Shown: positions 3,535-30,124, counted from the first letter of the stretch. The stretch: DNA of 64,000 bases from a virus (IMGVR_UViG_3300014057_000005:32001-96000); one strand, 5' to 3'. Notes: a model not told the origin generated them from the letters alone. A program made the numbers and translations.

Positions 3535-6462
3535 TTGCCCAACTTAATGACCCAAAATGGGTTAATATCCGTGGCGACTGACGCATATGGTCGATCCAAG
3601 GAACTGACCGCATTTATTTGCGACCCGGTTCGCACCCATATCTGCCAGATTGGCGGGATTACGACCTTCGATTTGTCAATTCGCTTCAAAGATATTTCTG
3701 AGATTGAATTTGTGGTTCAGCGGTATATTGAAAACGCGTCCACACACGAAGTAGAAGAAAACAAAGCCTACTCTTATCTGCACAGTTTCTGTGAGATTTA
3801 TGTGCCAGAACTTGGCAAGAGGGGTTATTTCATTATAAATAGTGAGCCGAGCATCTTGGCAGAAAGCACGGCTCGTGAAAGCAAGTCTTTTACCGCCTAT
3901 TCATACGAGAGCGTTTTGCAAGGCGAAAATCTTGTGAATTTCGACATCAATCAAGGCACTGAGACGAGCCGCGAAATCTGGGAGGCATCTGAGGGCGAGG
4001 TAAGTATCTTCGACACAGTTTGCCTGTACGACCCGGAGAATCCGAAACTTAGTTTGCTCGACCTTATACTGGAGGATGACTACTACGGTTGGCAGATAGG
4101 GCATGTTGACGGCTCAATCGCATCTTTGCGCAGAGCATTTTCGGTAGACAACAAGAATGTATATGCTTTTCTCACTGGTGATGTGAGTCAGGCATTCCGA
4201 TGTATTGTAGACTTTGATACGGCAGGCAAGCTAATTAACGTTTACAACATCGAGACGGTCGGGAATAACACAAACATCTACCTCTCGTTTGAGAATTTTG
4301 TGCAGCAGATTAGTATTTCGCCAGCATCAGATAATCTCTATACGGTCTTCAATGTTGCGGGGAGAAATGGCTTAGGAATTGAACTTGTCAACTTTGGAAG
4401 TAACAAAATAGTTGACATCTCCTACCCTCTCTCACTTTGCAGAGCGGATATTCAAACACGCTACGCCGCCTATCTAGCGTTTAGAGACACAAAGAGAACG
4501 GAATACTCTGACGCGGCGATTGATTATACGAACGCGCAAAGCAAGTATAACGCGGTAATGGATCGCCAGCCAGACGATGTACTGAACAACAACTGGGCAT
4601 CTCCCATGTTTTCGCTTGAAGACCTACAAAAAGAACTAGAGTTTGCGCAGTGGTATGTCGCAGAGATTGAGGGCGAATACACAAAGCAAGATGGCTCGAT
4701 TGACTACGACGCTCTAAACACGTCCACAGACGCGGCAACCTACTACTCGTTTAAGAAGGTGGCCATCCCGGATCTCACGGCTGAAATTGCCAAGAGAGAA
4801 GCCGGTAGTTCTGAGGAAGCGGATACGGTTGACCAAGAATTCGTCTGGGAACTGTATGGGCTAAATGACCTCAAGCTTGAGAAGCAGAACATACAAAATG
4901 TCATCAACGCCTATAGAGATGGCGGATGGGCGGATCCGTACGATGAGACGCGCCATATTGACCAGACCACATATAATACAAATCATGGCGAGTATGTAAA
5001 GTACACAAATCGTTTGAGCGAACTTGATACCTATATTGCAGATATGGAAGATAAGGCGGAGCAATTCGCGGACGAGATGGCAATGTACCAATCTACACTG
5101 CAAAGCATTGCCCAGTCTGTTTCTCTGTCCGGCTACGGCTTTGACGATGGGGAAATTGCTCTTATCACACAGCTTTATCGTGAGAGCGACTACTCTGACG
5201 ACAACTATCTTATCACGGACTATGACGATGCAACGAGTACTGTTGCCGTAGAAAACGACTTATATGAGGCGGCTACAAAACGCCTCGCAATTGAGTGCCA
5301 CCCGCAAATTAAATGGGCGGTTAAATCTGACGACCTGTTTGACATTGAGGAGTTTAAACCTCTTCGCGACAGCTTACAGGTTGGCGACTTTATAATTCTT
5401 GGGTACGGCGTATCTGACGCCGAAACCTACGTTCGTTTGCGGTGTATGCAATTTGACTTTAGCGGACTCAAAACGGATTCCACTTTTAACATCACATTTA
5501 GCACCGCAACAAATTCTAAATACCAGAACGATGATTATGAGGATCTTCTTCAGAACTATCTCACTTCGCGGACAAACCAGATTTCAGTAAGAGCGACTTC
5601 GGCAGCATCCTCGACAGCTTCCAAGGTCGCCAACTCTCTGATTCGCCCTTATGTACAGATAATGAACGCCAAACTACAAGAGGCGGAAATCGACCAAGCT
5701 ACAATCAATGAACTTCGGGCGGTCTGGGGTAAGTTCGAAACCGTTCTGGCAGACTATATTCAAGCTGATGAACTGGCGGCAAACGTTGCGAATATCAATT
5801 CTCTTACGGTTCAAGATGCTATTGTGCAAAACCTGCTCTCTTCTGAAATTGTGCAGGCCGCACTCTTAAAAGTTGACCGTATTGAAGACCGCACAGACAC
5901 AACGCCCCATAGCTATTGGGATCTTACCACTGGCGAACTATCGCTAAAGGGATATGTCTTCTCGACACGAATTGAATACATTCTGGGGGACGACCAGACG
6001 ACCGCGCCAGCAGACAATGACCCCGGTTGGAGCACATCTGTACCCGCTTCGCAAGAAGGCAAGTACATGTGGCAGAGAATTGTTATGGTGGAATCGGACG
6101 GATCCGAACACCCGGCGACTCCTGTCTGCATTCAGGGCGCGATGGGCGAAGATGGCGATGACGCAGTAGTTATGGAAATCGTCAGCACGAACGGCAATAT
6201 TTTCAAAAACAATCTTGTGAATACTAAACTCAACGTGACAGTGCGTAAGGGAGTACTAGCAATTACTACTCTGGCTGTTCTTAGAAACGTTTTCGGTGCC
6301 TCGGCGCATCTTGTTTGGTACTCCAAGAGCGACACAGATACGGACTTTGTACAGATACTTAGTTCGGATTCACGGTTATCAAATGATGGTTTTACATTGA
6401 CACTTACACCTACCGATGTGAATAATCGGCGGGTGTTCCAGTGTGAAGTTCAGACTAATTAA
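3535..6462 (+). CDS. Tal-like baseplate hub / tail spike protein
   Basis: 975 aa after Dit; GGAGGAGG RBS before TTG; hub-type N-terminus, coiled-coil middle, LQVGDFI motif, C-terminal GKYMWQR fibre-type module. Confidence 0.7.
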   Translation: MPNLMTQNGLISVATDAYGRSKELTAFICDPVRTHICQIGGITTFDLSIRFKDISEIEFVVQRYIENASTHEVEENKAYSYLHSFCEIYVPELGKRGYFIINSEPSILAESTARESKSFTAYSYESVLQGENLVNFDINQGTETSREIWEASEGEVSIFDTVCLYDPENPKLSLLDLILEDDYYGWQIGHVDGSIASLRRAFSVDNKNVYAFLTGDVSQAFRCIVDFDTAGKLINVYNIETVGNNTNIYLSFENFVQQISISPASDNLYTVFNVAGRNGLGIELVNFGSNKIVDISYPLSLCRADIQTRYAAYLAFRDTKRTEYSDAAIDYTNAQSKYNAVMDRQPDDVLNNNWASPMFSLEDLQKELEFAQWYVAEIEGEYTKQDGSIDYDALNTSTDAATYYSFKKVAIPDLTAEIAKREAGSSEEADTVDQEFVWELYGLNDLKLEKQNIQNVINAYRDGGWADPYDETRHIDQTTYNTNHGEYVKYTNRLSELDTYIADMEDKAEQFADEMAMYQSTLQSIAQSVSLSGYGFDDGEIALITQLYRESDYSDDNYLITDYDDATSTVAVENDLYEAATKRLAIECHPQIKWAVKSDDLFDIEEFKPLRDSLQVGDFIILGYGVSDAETYVRLRCMQFDFSGLKTDSTFNITFSTATNSKYQNDDYEDLLQNYLTSRTNQISVRATSAASSTASKVANSLIRPYVQIMNAKLQEAEIDQATINELRAVWGKFETVLADYIQADELAANVANINSLTVQDAIVQNLLSSEIVQAALLKVDRIEDRTDTTPHSYWDLTTGELSLKGYVFSTRIEYILGDDQTTAPADNDPGWSTSVPASQEGKYMWQRIVMVESDGSEHPATPVCIQGAMGEDGDDAVVMEIVSTNGNIFKNNLVNTKLNVTVRKGVLAITTLAVLRNVFGASAHLVWYSKSDTDTDFVQILSSDSRLSNDGFTLTLTPTDVNNRRVFQCEVQTN

Positions 6463-25841: not shown

Positions 25842-27158
25842 TTACACCTCGCTAAGAAGGTCTGCATCCATTGAAGCGACCTGCTCGTCTGTTAGGTTAT
25901 CCACTGCAATTCCGGCCAGACACTTGAACCAGAATCCCTTGGTCTTATAGGCTGTAAATTTCGGCCTATCTGCCAGAGTGACAACCACGCCCTCCGTGAT
26001 ATGCGTCCCGTTAGAAAGCGGTTCCGGTTGGTCTAGATACTTTTCACATCTGGCATTTAGGTCTTCCCATGTCGTGTAGAAGAACCGCTCAAGATAGGGG
26101 ACTGTATCTAATCCATGATTCGCGCACCATCTTCGCATTGTTTCATGCGGGATATCGAAGACCTCGCCATCTTCATTGGTAATCGTCATTCTATAGATGT
26201 ATGCGTGGCTCTCGCCGGGTTCGCAGCCGTAGTCGAAAACCATACGGTCGCCGTATCGTTTACGAAAATCTTTGTCGGCAACCTTTTTGACATCTGCTAC
26301 TGGCATAATCGGGGTCGAATCATTGACATACCCTACCAGTTCGCCATAGATTGTTACACCCTTCGGAAGAATCGGAGCAAGCTGTTCGGTGTACTTCTTG
26401 CGGAACTCGTTGCTCCCGTAGTAGCCACCGGAGTAATCATCGTCTAAGATGACCTTGCGTGTGCCACCTACAACCTTCCATTTCTTTTCAACAATTTCTT
26501 TTCTTGTCGGATGGAGGATCCGCTGAAGTAGGGTCGGCTTCTTATGGATCTCTTCAAGAGTGTTGCCAACGCGGAAGGAAGTACCGTGTAGCTTTCTTGT
26601 CAGATAAACCAGATCGCCCTCGTGAAACGCGTCTTGATTATAGGCAAGCTGCTCGGTATCAACATGTGGTTCAAAAAACGGAAACTCCGTGGTTTTTACC
26701 TTCTTTTTTCTCTCACCTCTCTTACCGCCGCCATTGCCTCTCTGGTTTCTTCGTATCGGAATGTATTTTCTACAAATAACCTCGTCGCCAAATTCGGAAA
26801 TTGCCTGACCTACTACTAACTTGGTTACATCACAATACGGGGATAAAACCTCAATCGGGAGGACAAGCCCCTCGGATTTTTCTTTTCGCAGCCGGATAGC
26901 CGTGATATTCCGCTTGCTAGGATCCATGTACCCGCCAATGTTGTTGCCGTCCGCGTCTTTCTTGCGAAGCAGGTTATTTTCTTCGCAAAACCGTTCGCTT
27001 AACTGTCCATCGACAGGAAAGTAAACGCACTTCTGTCCTTCATGATATTTAAGGTCGGTAATAACATTCTGTCCGTAGACCTCGAAGCACTGGAGCCGGT
27101 CTGCATTCGTGTGCTTTCTCGGCTCAGGCAGTTCTACAATATAAGCTTTATATGCCAT
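25842..27158 (-). CDS. RNA ligase (Rnl5/DRB0094-like, N-terminal OB domain)
   Basis: HTNADRL N-terminal motif; nucleotidyltransferase motifs KLHGT, YGEL, EGVVV, YKTK. Confidence 0.85.
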   Translation of the reverse strand: MAYKAYIVELPEPRKHTNADRLQCFEVYGQNVITDLKYHEGQKCVYFPVDGQLSERFCEENNLLRKKDADGNNIGGYMDPSKRNITAIRLRKEKSEGLVLPIEVLSPYCDVTKLVVGQAISEFGDEVICRKYIPIRRNQRGNGGGKRGERKKKVKTTEFPFFEPHVDTEQLAYNQDAFHEGDLVYLTRKLHGTSFRVGNTLEEIHKKPTLLQRILHPTRKEIVEKKWKVVGGTRKVILDDDYSGGYYGSNEFRKKYTEQLAPILPKGVTIYGELVGYVNDSTPIMPVADVKKVADKDFRKRYGDRMVFDYGCEPGESHAYIYRMTITNEDGEVFDIPHETMRRWCANHGLDTVPYLERFFYTTWEDLNARCEKYLDQPEPLSNGTHITEGVVVTLADRPKFTAYKTKGFWFKCLAGIAVDNLTDEQVASMDADLLSEV

Positions 27159-28071
27159 CTCTCTCCTCTCTCTTACAAGCTTTTACATCCGCCTCGTGCA
27201 GTTTTCGAAGCGAGTTGTAAAACTCCTCTCCCAAAAACTTCTTATCCCGTTCTTCTGCTCTTGGCGACTTACTCCATACGAACGGACGCATATGCCAACG
27301 AATCAGATTTGCGACCTCTAATGTGTACTGCACCGTATGTCCGCCAGTAAGAAGATGCGGTAATACATAATAGCTTGAGCAGCAATCGTGCCCGTAGTAG
27401 TGCGCAACGCCGTTCTCATCGAAGGACTGGGTAAATAGCTTCCCATAGTCATGATAAAGAGCCGCGCAGAATAGCTTGGTATCACAAGGGCAACAGTTCC
27501 ATGCCGTGAGTGCGCAGTGTTCGCCGAGCGTATATGGATGGTGAGGATTGCGCTGGTCGAACCCATCAATTTTACGCAAATCCATCATGCCGTCTTTACT
27601 TTGGACGCTTGGCGGCATCAAAAGTTCGATATCGTCCCAACCTTCTTGAAACATAGGTGGGTCGAAACTGGTAAGTTGTCTCGTATACACCTCATCAGGG
27701 ACAACAAACTCGCGTTTTACATTCCGCTCCTTCAACATTTCTACTGGCAAGACAAAACACTTTAATTCCTTGCGACACGGGACTTTGGCAATCTGCTCTA
27801 AGAAAGCCATGCGCCGTTTACGCTTGATGTTGGTCGCGTCATATACAACGGTCTGCCCATTGCGAAGAGCCGCTATAGCGCGACCGTGCAATTCGCTAAA
27901 GACCTGTCTCTGTTCTTTCTGGCTATACCCACCAGAGCCGAAGAGGTTTCGCCGGATTTCATCTGACGATAAGACCACATACTCTGGGTAGACAATTCTC
28001 GCCGAGTGTGCCCAAGACGACTTCCCAGAAGCAGGTAAACCCATTAACATAATCAGTCGTGCTTCTTCCAC
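27148..28071 (-). CDS. Polynucleotide kinase - HD phosphoesterase (RNA end healing)
   Basis: GTG start at 28071; P-loop GLPASGKS, DEIR, YDATN; HD domain H..TLGEH, YHDYGK, HM, LHEAD. Confidence 0.85.
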   Translation of the reverse strand: MEEARLIMLMGLPASGKSSWAHSARIVYPEYVVLSSDEIRRNLFGSGGYSQKEQRQVFSELHGRAIAALRNGQTVVYDATNIKRKRRMAFLEQIAKVPCRKELKCFVLPVEMLKERNVKREFVVPDEVYTRQLTSFDPPMFQEGWDDIELLMPPSVQSKDGMMDLRKIDGFDQRNPHHPYTLGEHCALTAWNCCPCDTKLFCAALYHDYGKLFTQSFDENGVAHYYGHDCCSSYYVLPHLLTGGHTVQYTLEVANLIRWHMRPFVWSKSPRAEERDKKFLGEEFYNSLRKLHEADVKACKREERDGI

Positions 28072-28228
28072 GCCCCCACTCTCCCTCTCGGTTCGCACCT
28101 CTGAACGTAACCGTCCTCGTAGTAAATCTCTGTGCAGTATCCGTCTGTACTTGCATGTGTTACTTCGCCATGTTCTCGGCGGGGATAGAAACGCTTTGGG
28201 TCTTTGTGTTTTCTGTCGTGTCGTCTCA

Positions 28229-28417
28229 TTATTCTCCTTTGCCAAAGAGGAAAGCTTTGTCGTTACACAGGTCTCTAACGTTCGTTCTCGTGATCCGCCC
28301 AGTATAGAGGCATGACGGGCATCGGTAATATTTAACGATTCGTCCCGGCTCGAAATGGTATGCGCGGTGCATCTTTATACCGCACTTCTTGCAAATCTTC
28401 ATGCAGGCTCCTTTCAT
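28229..28417 (-). CDS. Small zinc-ribbon protein
   Basis: CKKC...CPSC. Confidence 0.6.
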   Translation of the reverse strand: MKGACMKICKKCGIKMHRAYHFEPGRIVKYYRCPSCLYTGRITRTNVRDLCNDKAFLFGKGE

Positions 28418-28593
28418 TCCTTATCTGGACTATTGTTTTTAATAGGCCAAAAGTATTCGCACCTCTCGCATCCGGGTTCCCTCGGAGTCTCTACAAAATA
28501 CGACTGCCAATAAGGATCTGGCTTTGCAGTAAACCGCCAACACCGATTCCTGTCTCGGCATCCCGCATCCCTACACATCGTAATATCTGGCAT
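28414..28593 (-). CDS. Small Cys-rich protein
   Basis: ATG at 28593 after AAGGAGGGG; DITMC....C.....CWRF...QSYF motif. Confidence 0.65.
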   Translation of the reverse strand: MPDITMCRDAGCRDRNRCWRFTAKPDPYWQSYFVETPREPGCERCEYFWPIKNNSPDKE

Positions 28594-28612
28594 CGTCCCC
28601 TCCTTTCGAGAA

Positions 28613-28682
28613 TTAGAGCGGCGGGATTCGAACCCGCATTTGCAGACTACAATTCTGCCCTCCCACCAATGAGTGCACCCTA
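28613..28682 (-). tRNA. Atypical tRNA or tRNA-like element, anticodon UGU (Thr)
   Basis: Acceptor TAGGGTG/CGCTCTA, D-stem CTC/GAG, anticodon arm GCAGA-ATTGTAG-TCTGC, T-arm GCGGG-TTCGAAT-CCCGC; C instead of U8; no encoded CCA. Confidence 0.65.
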
Positions 28683-28763
28683 ACAAACACGCTAACCAAA
28701 AGTGAAATAGTGAGATGTTTTGCTAAAATATGTGACAGTTAGCTAGTTAACGAGTTTTATATG

Positions 28764-29123
28764 ACAACCCGTCACAATAGCAGCCGTGCGATGAATTATC
28801 GAGCAATTGCGTCTCCAACCCCTTAAACGTTCCTCACGGATTTTTGGATTTAGTAAACAATGTTTTCTATTACATATTACATAAACAAGTTCTAATACTT
28901 ACTGAATACTCATTGAACAATAATGAGTAAGCAATAACCAATCCGACGTTCAGTTTGCCATTTTTAAAGCGCATAGCTGTCGCGCTAAAAACGGCTCTTT
29001 TAGAATAATCGTAATCGTACTTGATTATGTAGGGGCGGTTCTTTTTATTGTTTTACTTTGTTCAGACCGCCGAACAGAACAAAGGGACGCAAGTTCATAA
29101 TTTTCGCTACTGTGACAGGTTGT
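28764..29123 (-). ncRNA. Candidate ~360-nt structured ncRNA
   Basis: 18-bp closing stem with two G-U pairs on the minus strand only; several internal hairpins; no credible ORF. Confidence 0.7.
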
Positions 29124-29132
29124 AGGTCAAGA

Positions 29133-29771
29133 TCAATAACTGATCGTGATCTCGTGTGTTGCGTTTGCGACCTGAATCGCCGCATCAACACCTGCCTCAA
29201 AGGCATCGACCTCATCCTGAAGCTTTTTCGCCTGTGTCATCGCCCCAAGCGGGTCAATCAGAACCACCTGATTGTTCTTCTTGAAGCTCTCGACGAATTC
29301 CATGTAGTCGGCGGAACTCGACTTCTCCTTTGCGCCAAACATTGCGGCGGCGGCGGCTTCTGCGGCGCGATCGAGCTTATCTCCGTTGGCTGCAAGAGCT
29401 TTACCACGGGCGTTTTCATACTGCGTGTTAAGCCTTAAAATCAGCGCACGCTTCCAGCTGTCCGCGAAGTTGTTAAGGAAGATCGCCTGCGCGATGGTGT
29501 ACTCGTGTCCGGCAACAATGATCGTTGTAGACGCGTTGTACTGGCTTACAGCGGCCTTCATAGCTTCATATCGAGCCAGAAGATCGATTGCGGACTGGAA
29601 GTTCGCCTTTGCTGCCTTCTCGAAGGCTTCGATATCAACACCAGCCACCTTTTTTGCAGTAGCCTTGTTCGGCTCAACCGCGTCCAGATCGTTAAGGGCA
29701 CGATCAAATTTCTTTTCAGCGGTTTTAATTTCGCACAGTGCCTGATGGACGGTCATAGTTTCAGTTCTCAT
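29133..29771 (-). CDS. Helical/coiled-coil protein (DIP1984/DUF6847-like by recollection)
   Basis: ATG at 29771 after GGAGGG; MTVHQAL.EIK...YTIAQAI...LIDPL...VDAAIQVANATHEITI. Confidence 0.7.
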   Translation of the reverse strand: MRTETMTVHQALCEIKTAEKKFDRALNDLDAVEPNKATAKKVAGVDIEAFEKAAKANFQSAIDLLARYEAMKAAVSQYNASTTIIVAGHEYTIAQAIFLNNFADSWKRALILRLNTQYENARGKALAANGDKLDRAAEAAAAAMFGAKEKSSSADYMEFVESFKKNNQVVLIDPLGAMTQAKKLQDEVDAFEAGVDAAIQVANATHEITISY

Positions 29772-29809
29772 ACATTTCCCTCCGTAATAAATACTATTGT
29801 TTTTAGTAA

Positions 29810-29881
29810 CTGGGGTGGCAGGATTCGAACCTGCGCGTGTAGGAGTCAAATTCCTAAGCCTTACCGCTTGGCAACACCCCA
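29810..29881 (-). tRNA. tRNA-Gln(UUG)
   Basis: TGGGGTG-TT-GCC..GGC-T-TAGGA-ATTTGAC-TCCTA-..GCAGG-TTCGAAT-CCTGC-CACCCCA-G; U1-A72 pair typical of tRNA-Gln; no encoded CCA. Confidence 0.92.
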
Positions 29882-29884
29882 AAA

Positions 29885-30066
29885 TGTCAATCGGAACTGG
29901 ACGACATGTTGCTAGAGTCGTGCATGTGCCTATCTCTAGATTCGGTTGAGTCGCGACCTCAATTGCAATGGTTGTATGGAAAGCGCTGCCCTTTCCCGGA
30001 ATCATTCCGCCGTCGATTTTTGCCTTCACGTCTAAAGGCTTTTTGTTCAACCAGTTCCTTTTGACA
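29885..30066 (-). ncRNA. Candidate ~180-nt multibranched ncRNA starting at the predicted promoter +1
   Basis: Closing stem UGUCAA..GGAACUGG / CCAGUUCC..UUGACA plus five internal hairpins. Confidence 0.6.
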
Positions 30067-30072
30067 ATAAGG

Positions 30073-30124
30073 ATTATACCATTAGTCCACATGTATGTCA
30101 ATACTGTTTGGGACTATTTTTATA
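30073..30124 (-). promoter_or_regulatory. SigA-type promoter TTGACA-17-TATAAT with upstream AAAATAGTCC motif
   Basis: -35 at 30096-30101, -10 at 30073-30078, motif starts at 30111. Confidence 0.85.

What the first reader, a model, noticed from the sequence alone, without database searches (positions are those of the whole stretch)
25842..30124. RNA-centred operon: ncRNA - tRNA-Gln - helical protein - large ncRNA - atypical tRNA - Zn proteins - Pnk-HD - RNA ligase
Seen: one consensus promoter (30073-30101) heads a co-oriented run in which two tRNA(-like) genes punctuate two structured non-coding segments and one 212-aa helical protein, followed by a heal-and-seal pair. Established: Pnk plus RNA ligase repair tRNA cut by anticodon nucleases, and tRNAs can act as RNase P/Z processing signals. 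Inference: a ribonucleoprotein or RNA-repair/anti-defence system whose ncRNAs are released by tRNA punctuation and may be ligase substrates (their paired ends would favour circularisation).
Basis: partly seen in the sequence, partly recalled or inferred. Interest (0 to 1): 0.85.

Follow-up and report, generated by a model that had tools for sequence, protein, structure and literature searches.

The report
Phage tRNA island: protein, knotted RNA, repair
One strong promoter in this rumen phage drives its only two tRNA genes, a widespread helical protein followed by a real 360-base knotted RNA of unknown function (also present, unannotated, in phage T5), and an RNA heal-and-seal enzyme pair, but these are separable modules, not one proven machine.

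Summary
On the minus strand lie a 12/12 consensus promoter, a 184-nt leader, tRNA-Gln(UUG), a 212-aa helical protein and a 449-nt ORF-free gap. A low-scoring tRNA-Thr(UGU)-like gene, small ORFs, a Pnk-HD and an OB+nucleotidyltransferase RNA ligase follow.

The "large ncRNA" is real. Bases 29123-28764 form a closed 360-nt RNA with a 19-bp closing stem, two further long-range helices, an H-type pseudoknot and a 7-nt-periodic array. Its first ~90 nt are a divergent RAGATH-27 motif (30 bits; cut-off 76). The same gene-plus-RNA pair sits in co-oriented tRNA arrays in 42 distinct loci and in phage T5, with strong covariation. An rRNA-depleted metatranscriptome contig covering just this RNA has about 10x the depth of the coding contigs.

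The leader is unconfirmed: no homologue was found, and it folds about as well on either strand.

The Pnk-HD/ligase pair is an orthologous cassette that lies 13 kb from the module in another phage. RNA-repair genes of four different types do recur near the module. I found no evidence for circularisation or for protein-RNA binding; the protein is mildly acidic.

This scan has found the protein-RNA pair before on other DNA. I found no paper on its function.

The RNA is a new variant of a known orphan motif.

The parts
30073..30101 (-). sigma-70 consensus promoter with extended -10
   Evidence: 12/12 hexamer matches, 17-nt spacer and TG. It is the only 12/12 site in 12 kb.
29883..30066 (-). 184-nt 5' leader; candidate structured RNA, unconfirmed
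   Evidence: MFE -58.4 kcal/mol, z -3.58 on the sense strand but -3.23 on the antisense strand. No homologue in 62 loci and no Rfam hit. The RNA contig here has depth 2.9 and spans the promoter.
29809..29882 (-). tRNA-Gln(UUG)
   Evidence: ARAGORN and Rfam, 57.8 bits.
29133..29771 (-). 212-aa helical protein, T5.085/phrog_1491 family
   Evidence: phrog_1491 E 2.5e-42 over its full length. 3090 50%-identity clusters at E<=1e-3. AF2 pLDDT 90.7. Best fold match 3kdq, Z 10.7.
28764..29123 (-). 360-nt closed, pseudoknotted, heptad-repeat RNA
   Evidence: z -5.86. Closing stem scores 43 against a shuffle maximum of 33. 33 of 44 consensus pairs show compensatory changes. RNA-seq contig at depth 30.8.
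29105..29123 (-). P1 closing stem, 5' strand; pairs with 28764-28782
   Evidence: 19 bp, 16 Watson-Crick plus 3 G-U.
28764..28782 (-). P1 closing stem, 3' strand
   Evidence: The G-U pairs are valid only on this strand.
29033..29116 (-). divergent RAGATH-27 (RF03100) match
   Evidence: 30.3 bits against a gathering score of 76.1, full model 1-86. Above threshold at the same place in L011, L012, L014, L045 and L002.
29034..29084 (-). H-type pseudoknot: S1 29084-29077 with 29063-29056; S2 29071-29066 with 29039-29034; A-rich loop 3
   Evidence: Perfect 8+6 bp, score 36 against a shuffle maximum of 22. S1 covariation 0.482 against 0.158, 0/500 shuffles. Present in 16/16 distinct RNAs.
28861..28944 (-). 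7-nt-periodic array (UUAYUGN-type units)
   Evidence: Lag-7 identity 0.52 against a null 99th percentile of 0.47. Information content 5.1 against a shuffle maximum of 4.4. This part is replaced or deleted in near-identical strains.
28612..28683 (-). tRNA-Thr(UGU)-like gene, atypical
   Evidence: 38.2 bits, with C8, U1-A72 and a D-stem mismatch. Strains carry C6-G67 in place of U6-G67.
28414..28593 (-). 59-aa Cys-rich ORF
   Evidence: phrog_20586, E 7.4e-9, function unknown.
28229..28417 (-). 62-aa CxxC...CxxC zinc-ribbon ORF
   Evidence: Sequence. Weak match to phrog_14974.
28053..28229 (-).
   Evidence: No family found.
27148..28050 (-). Pnk-HD: 5'-kinase P-loop domain plus HD phosphoesterase
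   Evidence: AAA_33 84 bits and HD 19.4 bits. Matches the solved C. thermocellum Pnkp kinase domain at 3.8e-7 and T4 Pnk at 1.6e-4. Walker A motif and HD dyad are present.
25842..27158 (-). ATP-dependent RNA ligase with N-terminal OB domain (DraRnl/Rnl5-like)
   Evidence: PF09414 41 bits, PF21189 26 bits. TIGR02306 50.8 bits. Motif I at K189. 48% identical orthologue next to a Pnk-HD in G005.

Best explanation
This is a minimal phage tRNA-island transcription unit built from three separable RNA-themed modules.

1. A consensus promoter, a long leader and tRNA-Gln.
2. A very widespread two-part module. It consists of a ~212-aa helical protein (T5.085 family) followed 9 nt later by a closed 360-nt RNA. 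That RNA has three long-range helices, a RAGATH-27-type H-type pseudoknot and a 7-nt-periodic array.
3. A tRNA-Thr-like gene, small ORFs and an orthologously conserved Pnk-HD plus OB-nucleotidyltransferase ligase cassette.

Shown here: the RNA is conserved, strand-specific and covarying. It sits in tRNA arrays in dozens of phages, T5 included. It appears more abundant than the flanking mRNA in one metatranscriptome.

Inferred: host RNase P and tRNA 3'-end processing cut the polycistronic transcript at the tRNAs and release a stable RNA. The evenly spaced 7-nt units are repeated binding sites for several copies of the co-encoded protein, as in TRAP or HutP, giving a ribonucleoprotein whose target is unknown. 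Pnk-HD and the ligase heal and seal broken RNA ends, most plausibly tRNAs cut by host anticodon nucleases. The module and the repair genes are linked by shared neighbourhood, not by obligate partnership.
For: - RNA structure: closing stem scores 43 against a shuffle maximum of 33, and an equivalent stem occurs in every related locus tested. 33/44 RNAalifold pairs are compensatory. Pseudoknot.
- Strand specificity: 79 G-U and no internal A-C pairs in P1 of 22 RNAs.
- Periodicity.
- Context: 47/48 IMG/VR loci lie inside co-oriented tRNA arrays.
- T5 carries a 357-nt copy with a 21-bp closing stem.
- Protein family: 3090 clusters of uniform length and 258 GenBank phage records.
- Expression hint: X20 contig 29152-28659 at depth 30.8 against 2.6-3.5 for the coding contigs.
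- Repair pair. An orthologous ligase/Pnk-HD cassette with RlaP lies elsewhere in G005.
- Different repair genes lie near the module: Rnl1+Pnk-HD in L026, RlaP in L039, PF09414 in L011/L012, RtcB in Dulem virus 39.
Against: - Protein-RNA binding is inferred from adjacency alone. The family is mildly acidic (median pI 5.85) and no nucleic-acid-binding fold was recognised.
- In the window the RNA's 3' end is 80 nt from the tRNA, so RNase P alone would not define that end.
- Contig depth is a poor measure of expression, and DNA can contaminate RNA libraries.
- The window's heptad signal is only modestly above the null.
- Only about 40% of module-bearing records show any RNA ligase, and I have no background rate for comparable phages that lack the module.
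Confidence: 0.6

Rival explanations
1. All parts form one RNP/RNA-repair machine in which the ncRNAs, excised by tRNA punctuation, are themselves substrates of Pnk-HD and the ligase, for example by circularisation through their paired ends.
For: - All parts share one promoter and one strand.
- P1 brings the RNA's two ends together.
- Four kinds of RNA-repair gene recur within 5 kb of the module in different clades.
Against: - The cassette is 13 kb from the module in G005.
- Roughly half of the near-complete module-bearing genomes show no ligase.
- DraRnl/NgrRnl-type ligases are known, from my own knowledge, as sealers of nicks in duplexes rather than of free ends.
- The RNA-seq contig runs linearly past both P1 ends.
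Confidence: 0.12
2. The 360-nt RNA is a cis-acting 3' UTR of the helical-protein mRNA. It would block exonucleases or serve as an autoregulatory site, and is not a separate trans-acting RNA.
For: - The RNA begins 4-40 nt after the stop codon in all loci.
- No promoter lies between the gene and the RNA.
- A pseudoknot and a long closing stem would block 3' exonucleases.
Against: - 360-490 nt with three long-range helices, a conserved periodic array and, in 22/42 loci, an embedded tRNA-like domain is far more than stabilisation needs.
- In X20 the RNA contig is about 10x deeper than the coding contigs and stops 19 nt inside the CDS.
Confidence: 0.12
3. The RNA is a sponge or decoy for a host factor, such as an RNA-binding protein, RNase or tRNA-targeting defence nuclease. 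The helical protein would be a helper or unrelated.
For: - Repeated short units resemble sponge RNAs such as CsrB.
- The array is the fastest-changing part between near-identical strains, and its unit differs between clades, as expected in an arms race.
- The protein is acidic.
- The context is tRNA and counter-defence genes. A Tad2-like anti-Thoeris domain and MazF-like genes are among the neighbours.
Against: - The strict gene-RNA adjacency across very distant phages argues for a direct partnership.
- No complementarity to the local tRNAs was found.
- No candidate host partner was identified.
Confidence: 0.12
4. The non-coding segments are only decayed spacers of a shrunken tRNA array and have no function.
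For: - The phage keeps only two tRNAs.
- The leader has no homologue.
Against: Covariation, strand-specific G-U pairs and conservation from rumen phages to T5 exclude this for the 360-nt RNA. It remains possible for the leader and for the 80-nt spacer.
Confidence: 0.02

Closest known systems
RAGATH-27 RNA motif (Rfam RF03100; orphan candidate sRNA from the survey of Weinberg et al. 2017, PMC5737381)
   Same: - Same position directly 3' of the T5.085-family gene as the above-threshold hits.
- Same hairpin with a long A-rich loop and the same conserved 5' segment.
- The window matches the full model, positions 1-86.
   Different: - The window scores 30.3 bits against a cut-off of 76.1.
- As printed, the model has one hairpin and an 'unpaired' 5' half. 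Here that half pairs with sequence ~300 nt downstream (P1-P3), and the hairpin loop forms a pseudoknot.
- The real unit is 335-490 nt with a heptad array.
Stable RNAs of unknown function in the phage T5 tRNA region (annotated RNAI, RNAIII, RNA1, RNA2, RNAX in NC_005859), and from memory T4 species 1/2 RNAs
   Same: Non-tRNA stable RNAs are embedded between phage tRNA genes and co-transcribed with them.
   Different: The RNA behind T5.085 is not among the annotated T5 RNAs. I did not test for homology to them.
T4 Pnkp + Rnl1, bacterial Pnkp/Hen1 and HD-Pnk/ligase RNA-repair pairs; DraRnl/NgrRnl (Rnl5) ligases
   Same: - A P-loop 5'-kinase with sequence similarity to the CthPnkp and T4 Pnk kinase domains.
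- An end-healing phosphoesterase domain.
- An adjacent ATP-dependent ligase with an N-terminal OB domain like DRB0094.
   Different: - Here the order is kinase then HD. The phosphatase is neither HAD (T4) nor metallophosphoesterase (Cth).
- The ligase is below the TIGR02306 cut-off (50.8 against 151).
- No Hen1 is present, and no activity was tested.
Ro60/Y-RNA (YrlA) with RtcB-RtcA operon of Salmonella (from my own knowledge)
   Same: An operon combines a structured ncRNA that has tRNA-like features and paired ends, a partner protein and RNA-repair enzymes.
   Different: No TROVE/Ro domain is present. No YrlA match was found in the window. The protein and RNA folds differ.
TRAP and HutP periodic RNA recognition (from my own knowledge)
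   Same: Short motifs repeated at a fixed spacing could each be read by one subunit of an oligomer. HutP reads UAG every 7 nt.
   Different: This is an analogy only.

Membership tests
RAGATH-27 (RF03100) | Covariance-model score at or above the curated gathering score (76.1 bits) | tested here: not met
   30.3 bits, E 0.13 for the region and 0.0018 for the genome, full-length match.
RAGATH-27 (RF03100) | Terminal hairpin with a long conserved A-rich loop, at the same genomic position as bona fide members | tested here: met
   S2 is 6 bp with an A-rich loop. Bona fide hits lie 10-50 nt after the homologous gene in L011, L012, L014, L045 and L002.
Full-length closed heptad-repeat RNA (as defined here from 42 loci) | 14-21-bp closing stem spanning 335-490 nt and starting just after the T5.085-family stop codon | tested here: met
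   19 bp, span 360 nt, 9 nt after the stop.
Full-length closed heptad-repeat RNA | H-type pseudoknot with covarying S1 and S2 | tested here: met
Full-length closed heptad-repeat RNA | 7-nt-periodic array in the centre | tested here: met
   Lag-7 identity 0.52 against a null 99th percentile of 0.47. The signal is weaker than in relatives (0.53-0.65).
T5.085 / phrog_1491 protein family | Full-length profile match with the conserved N- and C-terminal motifs | tested here: met
   E 2.5e-42 over residues 3-210. Invariant termini are seen in alignment A1.
Tail fiber protein (the PHROG/RefSeq label of this family) | Location in a tail gene module; fibre or beta-rich fold | tested here: not met
   The gene lies in tRNA arrays in 47/48 loci. 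The model is a helical bundle. The label looks like a propagated misannotation.
DUF6847 / DIP1984-like (3kdq) | Pfam profile match or a clear fold match | tested here: inconclusive
   No Pfam hit at E<=0.01. 3kdq gives Z 10.7 over 150 residues, which is within the range seen for unrelated helical proteins. The Atlas lead scores 0.87.
tRNA (RF00005) | Cloverleaf score above gathering | tested here: met
   57.8 and 38.2 bits against a cut-off of 29.
Canonical bacterial tRNA-Thr | G1-C72 and C2-G71 acceptor pairs, U8 (E. coli identity rules, from my own knowledge) | tested here: not met
   The sequence has U1-A72, A2-U71 and C8 (alignment). Aminoacylation identity is unknown.
Polynucleotide 5'-kinase (Pnkp-type P-loop) | Walker A motif and profile or structure-sequence match | tested here: met
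   AAA_33 84 bits. Matches 4gp7 at 3.8e-7 and 1ltq at 1.6e-4. P-loop at residues 69-76 of P0055.
HD phosphoesterase | HD-domain profile above cut-off and the H...HD motif | tested here: inconclusive
   19.4 bits against a cut-off of 22. The HD dyad is at 265-266. The relative in L026 scores 24.4 bits.
Rnl5 / DraRnl-type RNA ligase | N-terminal OB domain, nucleotidyltransferase domain and the motif I lysine | tested here: met
   PF09414 41.2 bits. PF21189 26.1 bits, 0.9 below its cut-off. Motif I at K189. As a TIGR02306 equivalog it is not met (50.8 against 151).
Ro60/Y-RNA RNA-repair operon | TROVE-domain protein and a YrlA-type RNA | tested here: not met
   No such Pfam or Rfam match in the window.

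The most novel reading that the evidence does not exclude
The helical protein and the heptad-repeat RNA form a ribonucleoprotein that is released from tRNA-island transcripts by tRNA-processing enzymes. It would act with the neighbouring, interchangeable RNA-repair enzymes as scaffold, guide or decoy to protect or restore tRNAs under attack by host anticodon nucleases. That would be an undescribed class of phage counter-defence particle, present from rumen phages to T5.
Probability: 0.15. Interest if true: 0.85.

Novelty: new variant of a known kind. Interest (0 to 1): 0.62.

Why it matters
- **Breadth.** A protein family with thousands of sequence clusters and a partner RNA of 335-490 nt sit at the heart of phage tRNA arrays, the model phage T5 included. 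I could find no paper on what they do.
- **Catalogue correction.** The only catalogued fragment, RAGATH-27, turns out to be the 5' tenth-to-quarter of a much larger closed, knotted RNA.
- **What this window adds.** It shows the most stripped-down form: the phage's only two tRNAs flank the pair, and an RNA heal-and-seal cassette follows. That sharpens the hypothesis that the pair belongs to the tRNA attack-and-repair arms race.
- **A likely specificity determinant.** Near-identical strains differ mainly in the repeat array.
- **Testability.** Because T5 carries the pair, the question can be tested directly by standard genetics and biochemistry.

Tried and rejected
- I therefore have no contexts for the 98%-identical protein cluster and no oligomer test.

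**Searches for relatives**
- Single-protein searches for close relatives found none in IMG/VR or JGI contigs, so the leader cannot be tested by covariation.
- Megablast of the 4.6-kb region against GenBank phages gave no match.
- The Rfam model did not detect the element at E<=1 in L005, L007, L009, PVP-SE1 or Clostridium phage D-1873. L005, L007 and L009 nevertheless show the same stems.

**Leader, spacer and post-ligase region**
- blastn and nhmmer found no homologue in 62 loci.
- Rfam at E<=10 found nothing in the leader or in the rest of the gap.

**Helical protein**
- The PDB sequence profile gave only chance hits.
- Foldseek gave nothing at E<=0.001.
- Pfam and NCBIfam gave nothing.

**RNA tests**
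- Complementarity between the 360-nt RNA and the leader, both tRNAs or the spacer was not above shuffles (p 0.15-0.64).
- No back-spliced or circular junction appeared, but only contigs could be laid and these cannot show one.
- The MAFFT alignment of the pseudoknot was not register-consistent for S2, so the tool count covers S1 only. S2 rests on my script.

**Literature**
- No text hit for RAGATH-27, DUF6847, phrog_1491 or T5.085 in a relevant paper.
- The supplements of Weinberg 2017 are not held.

**Rejected idea**
- The conserved 5' half of RAGATH-27 as a DNA promoter. The -10-like hexamer is not conserved, and these bases covary with a distal strand.

Full report
**Source and anatomy.**
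The window is part of a 108-kb IMG/VR virus record. Near-identical DNA occurs in bovine, sheep and goat gut metagenomes from 17 studies.

Reading the minus strand from 30101 downwards:
- A promoter with 12/12 consensus matches and an extended -10. It is the only such site in 12 kb.
- A 184-nt leader.
- tRNA-Gln(UUG), 57.8 bits.
- After 37 nt, a 212-aa ORF with a good ribosome-binding site.
- A 449-nt stretch with no ORF longer than 34 aa on this strand.
- A tRNA-Thr(UGU)-like gene, 38.2 bits.
- Two Cys-rich small ORFs and a third 58-aa ORF.
- A Pnk-HD and an RNA ligase.

No convincing terminator interrupts the run. These are the only two tRNA genes in the whole record.

**The protein.**
It matches phrog_1491 over its full length (E 2.5e-42). 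That family is labelled "tail fiber protein" and includes T5.085 and PVP-SE1 gp82. The label is almost certainly wrong:
- In 47 of 48 IMG/VR loci the gene lies inside a co-oriented tRNA array.
- The confident AF2 model (pLDDT 90.7) is a helical bundle capped by a small sheet made from the invariant N- and C-termini.

A profile search finds 3090 clusters at 50% identity, nearly all 205-222 aa long. tblastn finds 258 GenBank phage records. The best structural match is an uncharacterised Corynebacterium protein (3kdq, Z 10.7). For a helical protein that score is not decisive. The family is mildly acidic, with median pI 5.85.

**The large ncRNA is real.**
Rfam gives a sub-threshold but full-length RAGATH-27 match at 29116-29033 (30.3 bits). 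The same model scores above threshold at the same place behind the homologous gene in five other phages.

A note from this scan pointed to a long closing stem. I checked it:
- 29123-29105 pairs with 28782-28764 over 19 bp (score 43; shuffle maximum 33).
- An equivalent stem of 14-21 bp, with entirely different sequence, closes a 335-490-nt span in every related locus tested, including T5.
- Across 22 RNAs this stem holds 79 G-U pairs and no internal A-C pair, so it exists only on the gene's strand.

RNAalifold on nine RNAs adds two further long-range helices. In all, 33 of 44 consensus pairs show compensatory changes. The "unpaired" 5' half of the Rfam motif is therefore one strand of P1-P3.

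The Rfam hairpin is stem 2 of an H-type pseudoknot, and its loop pairs with upstream bases as stem 1:
- In the window this is a perfect 8+6 bp (score 36 against a shuffle maximum of 22).
- All 16 distinct RNAs tested have it.
- Stem 1 has a covariation score of 0.482 against 0.158 in shuffles (0/500) and at most 0.167 in slid controls.

The centre carries a 7-nt-periodic array (lag-7 identity 0.52 against a null 99th percentile of 0.47). The unit is UUAYUGN-like in the window's clade and AAAGNUY-like in others. The single-sequence fold has z -5.86.

**Expression and variation.**
Only contigs could be laid, so this is a hint and not proof. In an rRNA-depleted metatranscriptome, one 434-nt contig at depth 30.8 covers 29152-28659. 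That is the RNA, the spacer and the first third of the tRNA-like gene. The coding contigs of the same run have depth 2.6-3.5.

Near-identical strains differ mostly inside the RNA's centre. One lacks 28954-29024. Two replace 28844-29004 with 138 other bases. The stems and flanks stay about 98% identical. The repeat region is thus the fast-evolving part.

**tRNA punctuation.**
Among 42 distinct loci with a strong closing stem:
- The RNA starts 4-40 nt after the stop codon.
- A co-oriented tRNA lies within 150 nt upstream of the gene in 28.
- The next tRNA begins within 10 nt of the RNA's 3' end in 9.
- A tRNA-like element is embedded in the RNA in 22.

In the window, however, 80 nt separate the RNA from the tRNA-like gene.

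**The leader.**
It folds into a closed multibranch structure (z -3.58), but the opposite strand does nearly as well (z -3.23). It has no homologue in 62 loci and no Rfam match. Its RNA-library contig is shallow and spans the promoter. It remains a candidate only.

**The repair pair.**
- The kinase domain has a Walker A motif and resembles the solved kinase domains of C. thermocellum Pnkp and T4 Pnk.
- An HD dyad follows, with a sub-threshold HD profile score.
- The ligase has an N-terminal OB domain, a PF09414 nucleotidyltransferase domain and a motif I lysine. It is nearest to the DRB0094 type.
- A 48%-identical ligase sits next to a 38%-identical Pnk-HD, with an RlaP gene, in another module-bearing phage. 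There the cassette lies 13 kb from the module.

The cassette is therefore an independent unit.

**Do the parts belong together?**
The tRNA, protein and RNA do: that association is near-universal. The Zn ORFs and the leader are unique to this phage.

Ligase genes occur in only some of the 48 module-bearing records:

| Gene | Records |
|---|---|
| PF09414 ligase | 16/48 |
| RtcB | 2/48 |
| Rnl1 | 1-2/48 |

Yet different repair genes lie within 5 kb of the module in separate clades:
- This window: OB-ligase plus Pnk-HD.
- L011/L012/L045: short PF09414 ligase.
- L026: Rnl1 plus Pnk-HD.
- L039: RlaP.
- Dulem virus 39: RtcB.

Such non-orthologous recurrence suggests a shared theme. tRNA arrays and tRNA repair may simply cluster for their own reasons, and I have no background rate to judge this.

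**Conclusion.**
The stretch is best read as a minimal tRNA island made of three modules. Its core, the helical protein plus the closed heptad-repeat RNA, is a widespread and functionally uncharacterised pair. This scan has already met it on other DNA. Rfam catalogues only its first 86 positions. Papers I could search do not discuss it.

The RNP reading, the repeated-site binding model and any coupling to RNA repair are inferences. Circularisation has no support.

Noticed in passing
window 29133-30101 (-): The reading frame of the 212-aa gene stays open for 110 further codons upstream, through the tRNA-Gln and the whole leader to a TTG inside the promoter. Homologues all start at the annotated ATG, so this is probably chance (roughly 1 in 200 for one frame).
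   Followed up: partly
window 28844-29024 (-): Near-identical rumen strains delete 71 nt or swap 161 nt for 138 unrelated nt exactly in the central, repeat-bearing part of the RNA. The flanks stay about 98% identical, making this a hypervariable cassette inside a conserved scaffold.
   Followed up: partly
L067 15141-15497 (-) = NC_005859 43140-43496: Phage T5 has an unannotated 357-nt copy of the RNA 8 nt after T5.085. It has a 21-bp closing stem, the pseudoknot and AAAG heptads. The record annotates eight other 'stable RNAs with unknown functions' but not this one.
   Followed up: yes
L013-L052 clade, about 5816-5907 of each locus: In this human-gut phage clade the RNA encloses a tRNA-like element that ARAGORN calls Gly(gcc), or Tyr/His with improbable A34 anticodons (ata, atg). 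The same arrays carry amber-suppressor-like tRNA(cta). L043 and L044 carry tRNA(tta), which hints at stop-codon recoding.
   Followed up: no
L002 (Dulem virus 39) 274-341, 759-823, 2483-2547: Three type II hammerhead ribozyme matches lie near the module. This fits the origin of the RAGATH name. An annotated 'hypothetical protein' at 5831-5947 overlaps an unannotated tRNA.
   Followed up: no
L003 7398-7505; L014 7648-7719; L009 2374-2465: Other orphan Rfam RNAs lie close to the module. These are drum RNA in Clostridium phage D-1873, int-alpA RNA in L014, and a sub-threshold Y-RNA-like (YrlA) match among the tRNAs of L009.
   Followed up: no
flanks of 15 module-bearing loci (alignment A5): Neighbours within 5 kb include three MazF/PemK-like endoribonuclease toxins, a Tad2-like anti-Thoeris domain, a Swiss-Army-Knife RNA-repair HAD domain, PhoH, a reverse transcriptase and a Cas12f-like TNB domain.
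   Followed up: no
window 28053-28229 (-) and 28050: A 58-aa ORF with a strong ribosome-binding site ends in a TGA two bases before an ATG that starts the kinase domain. The 365-aa TTG-started Pnk-HD model is probably 65 residues too long.
   Followed up: partly
window 28677 and 28663: All four laid runs carry C6 in place of U6 in the tRNA-Thr-like acceptor stem, turning a G-U pair into G-C. They also carry a D-arm change. The window's copy is the odd one out.
   Followed up: partly
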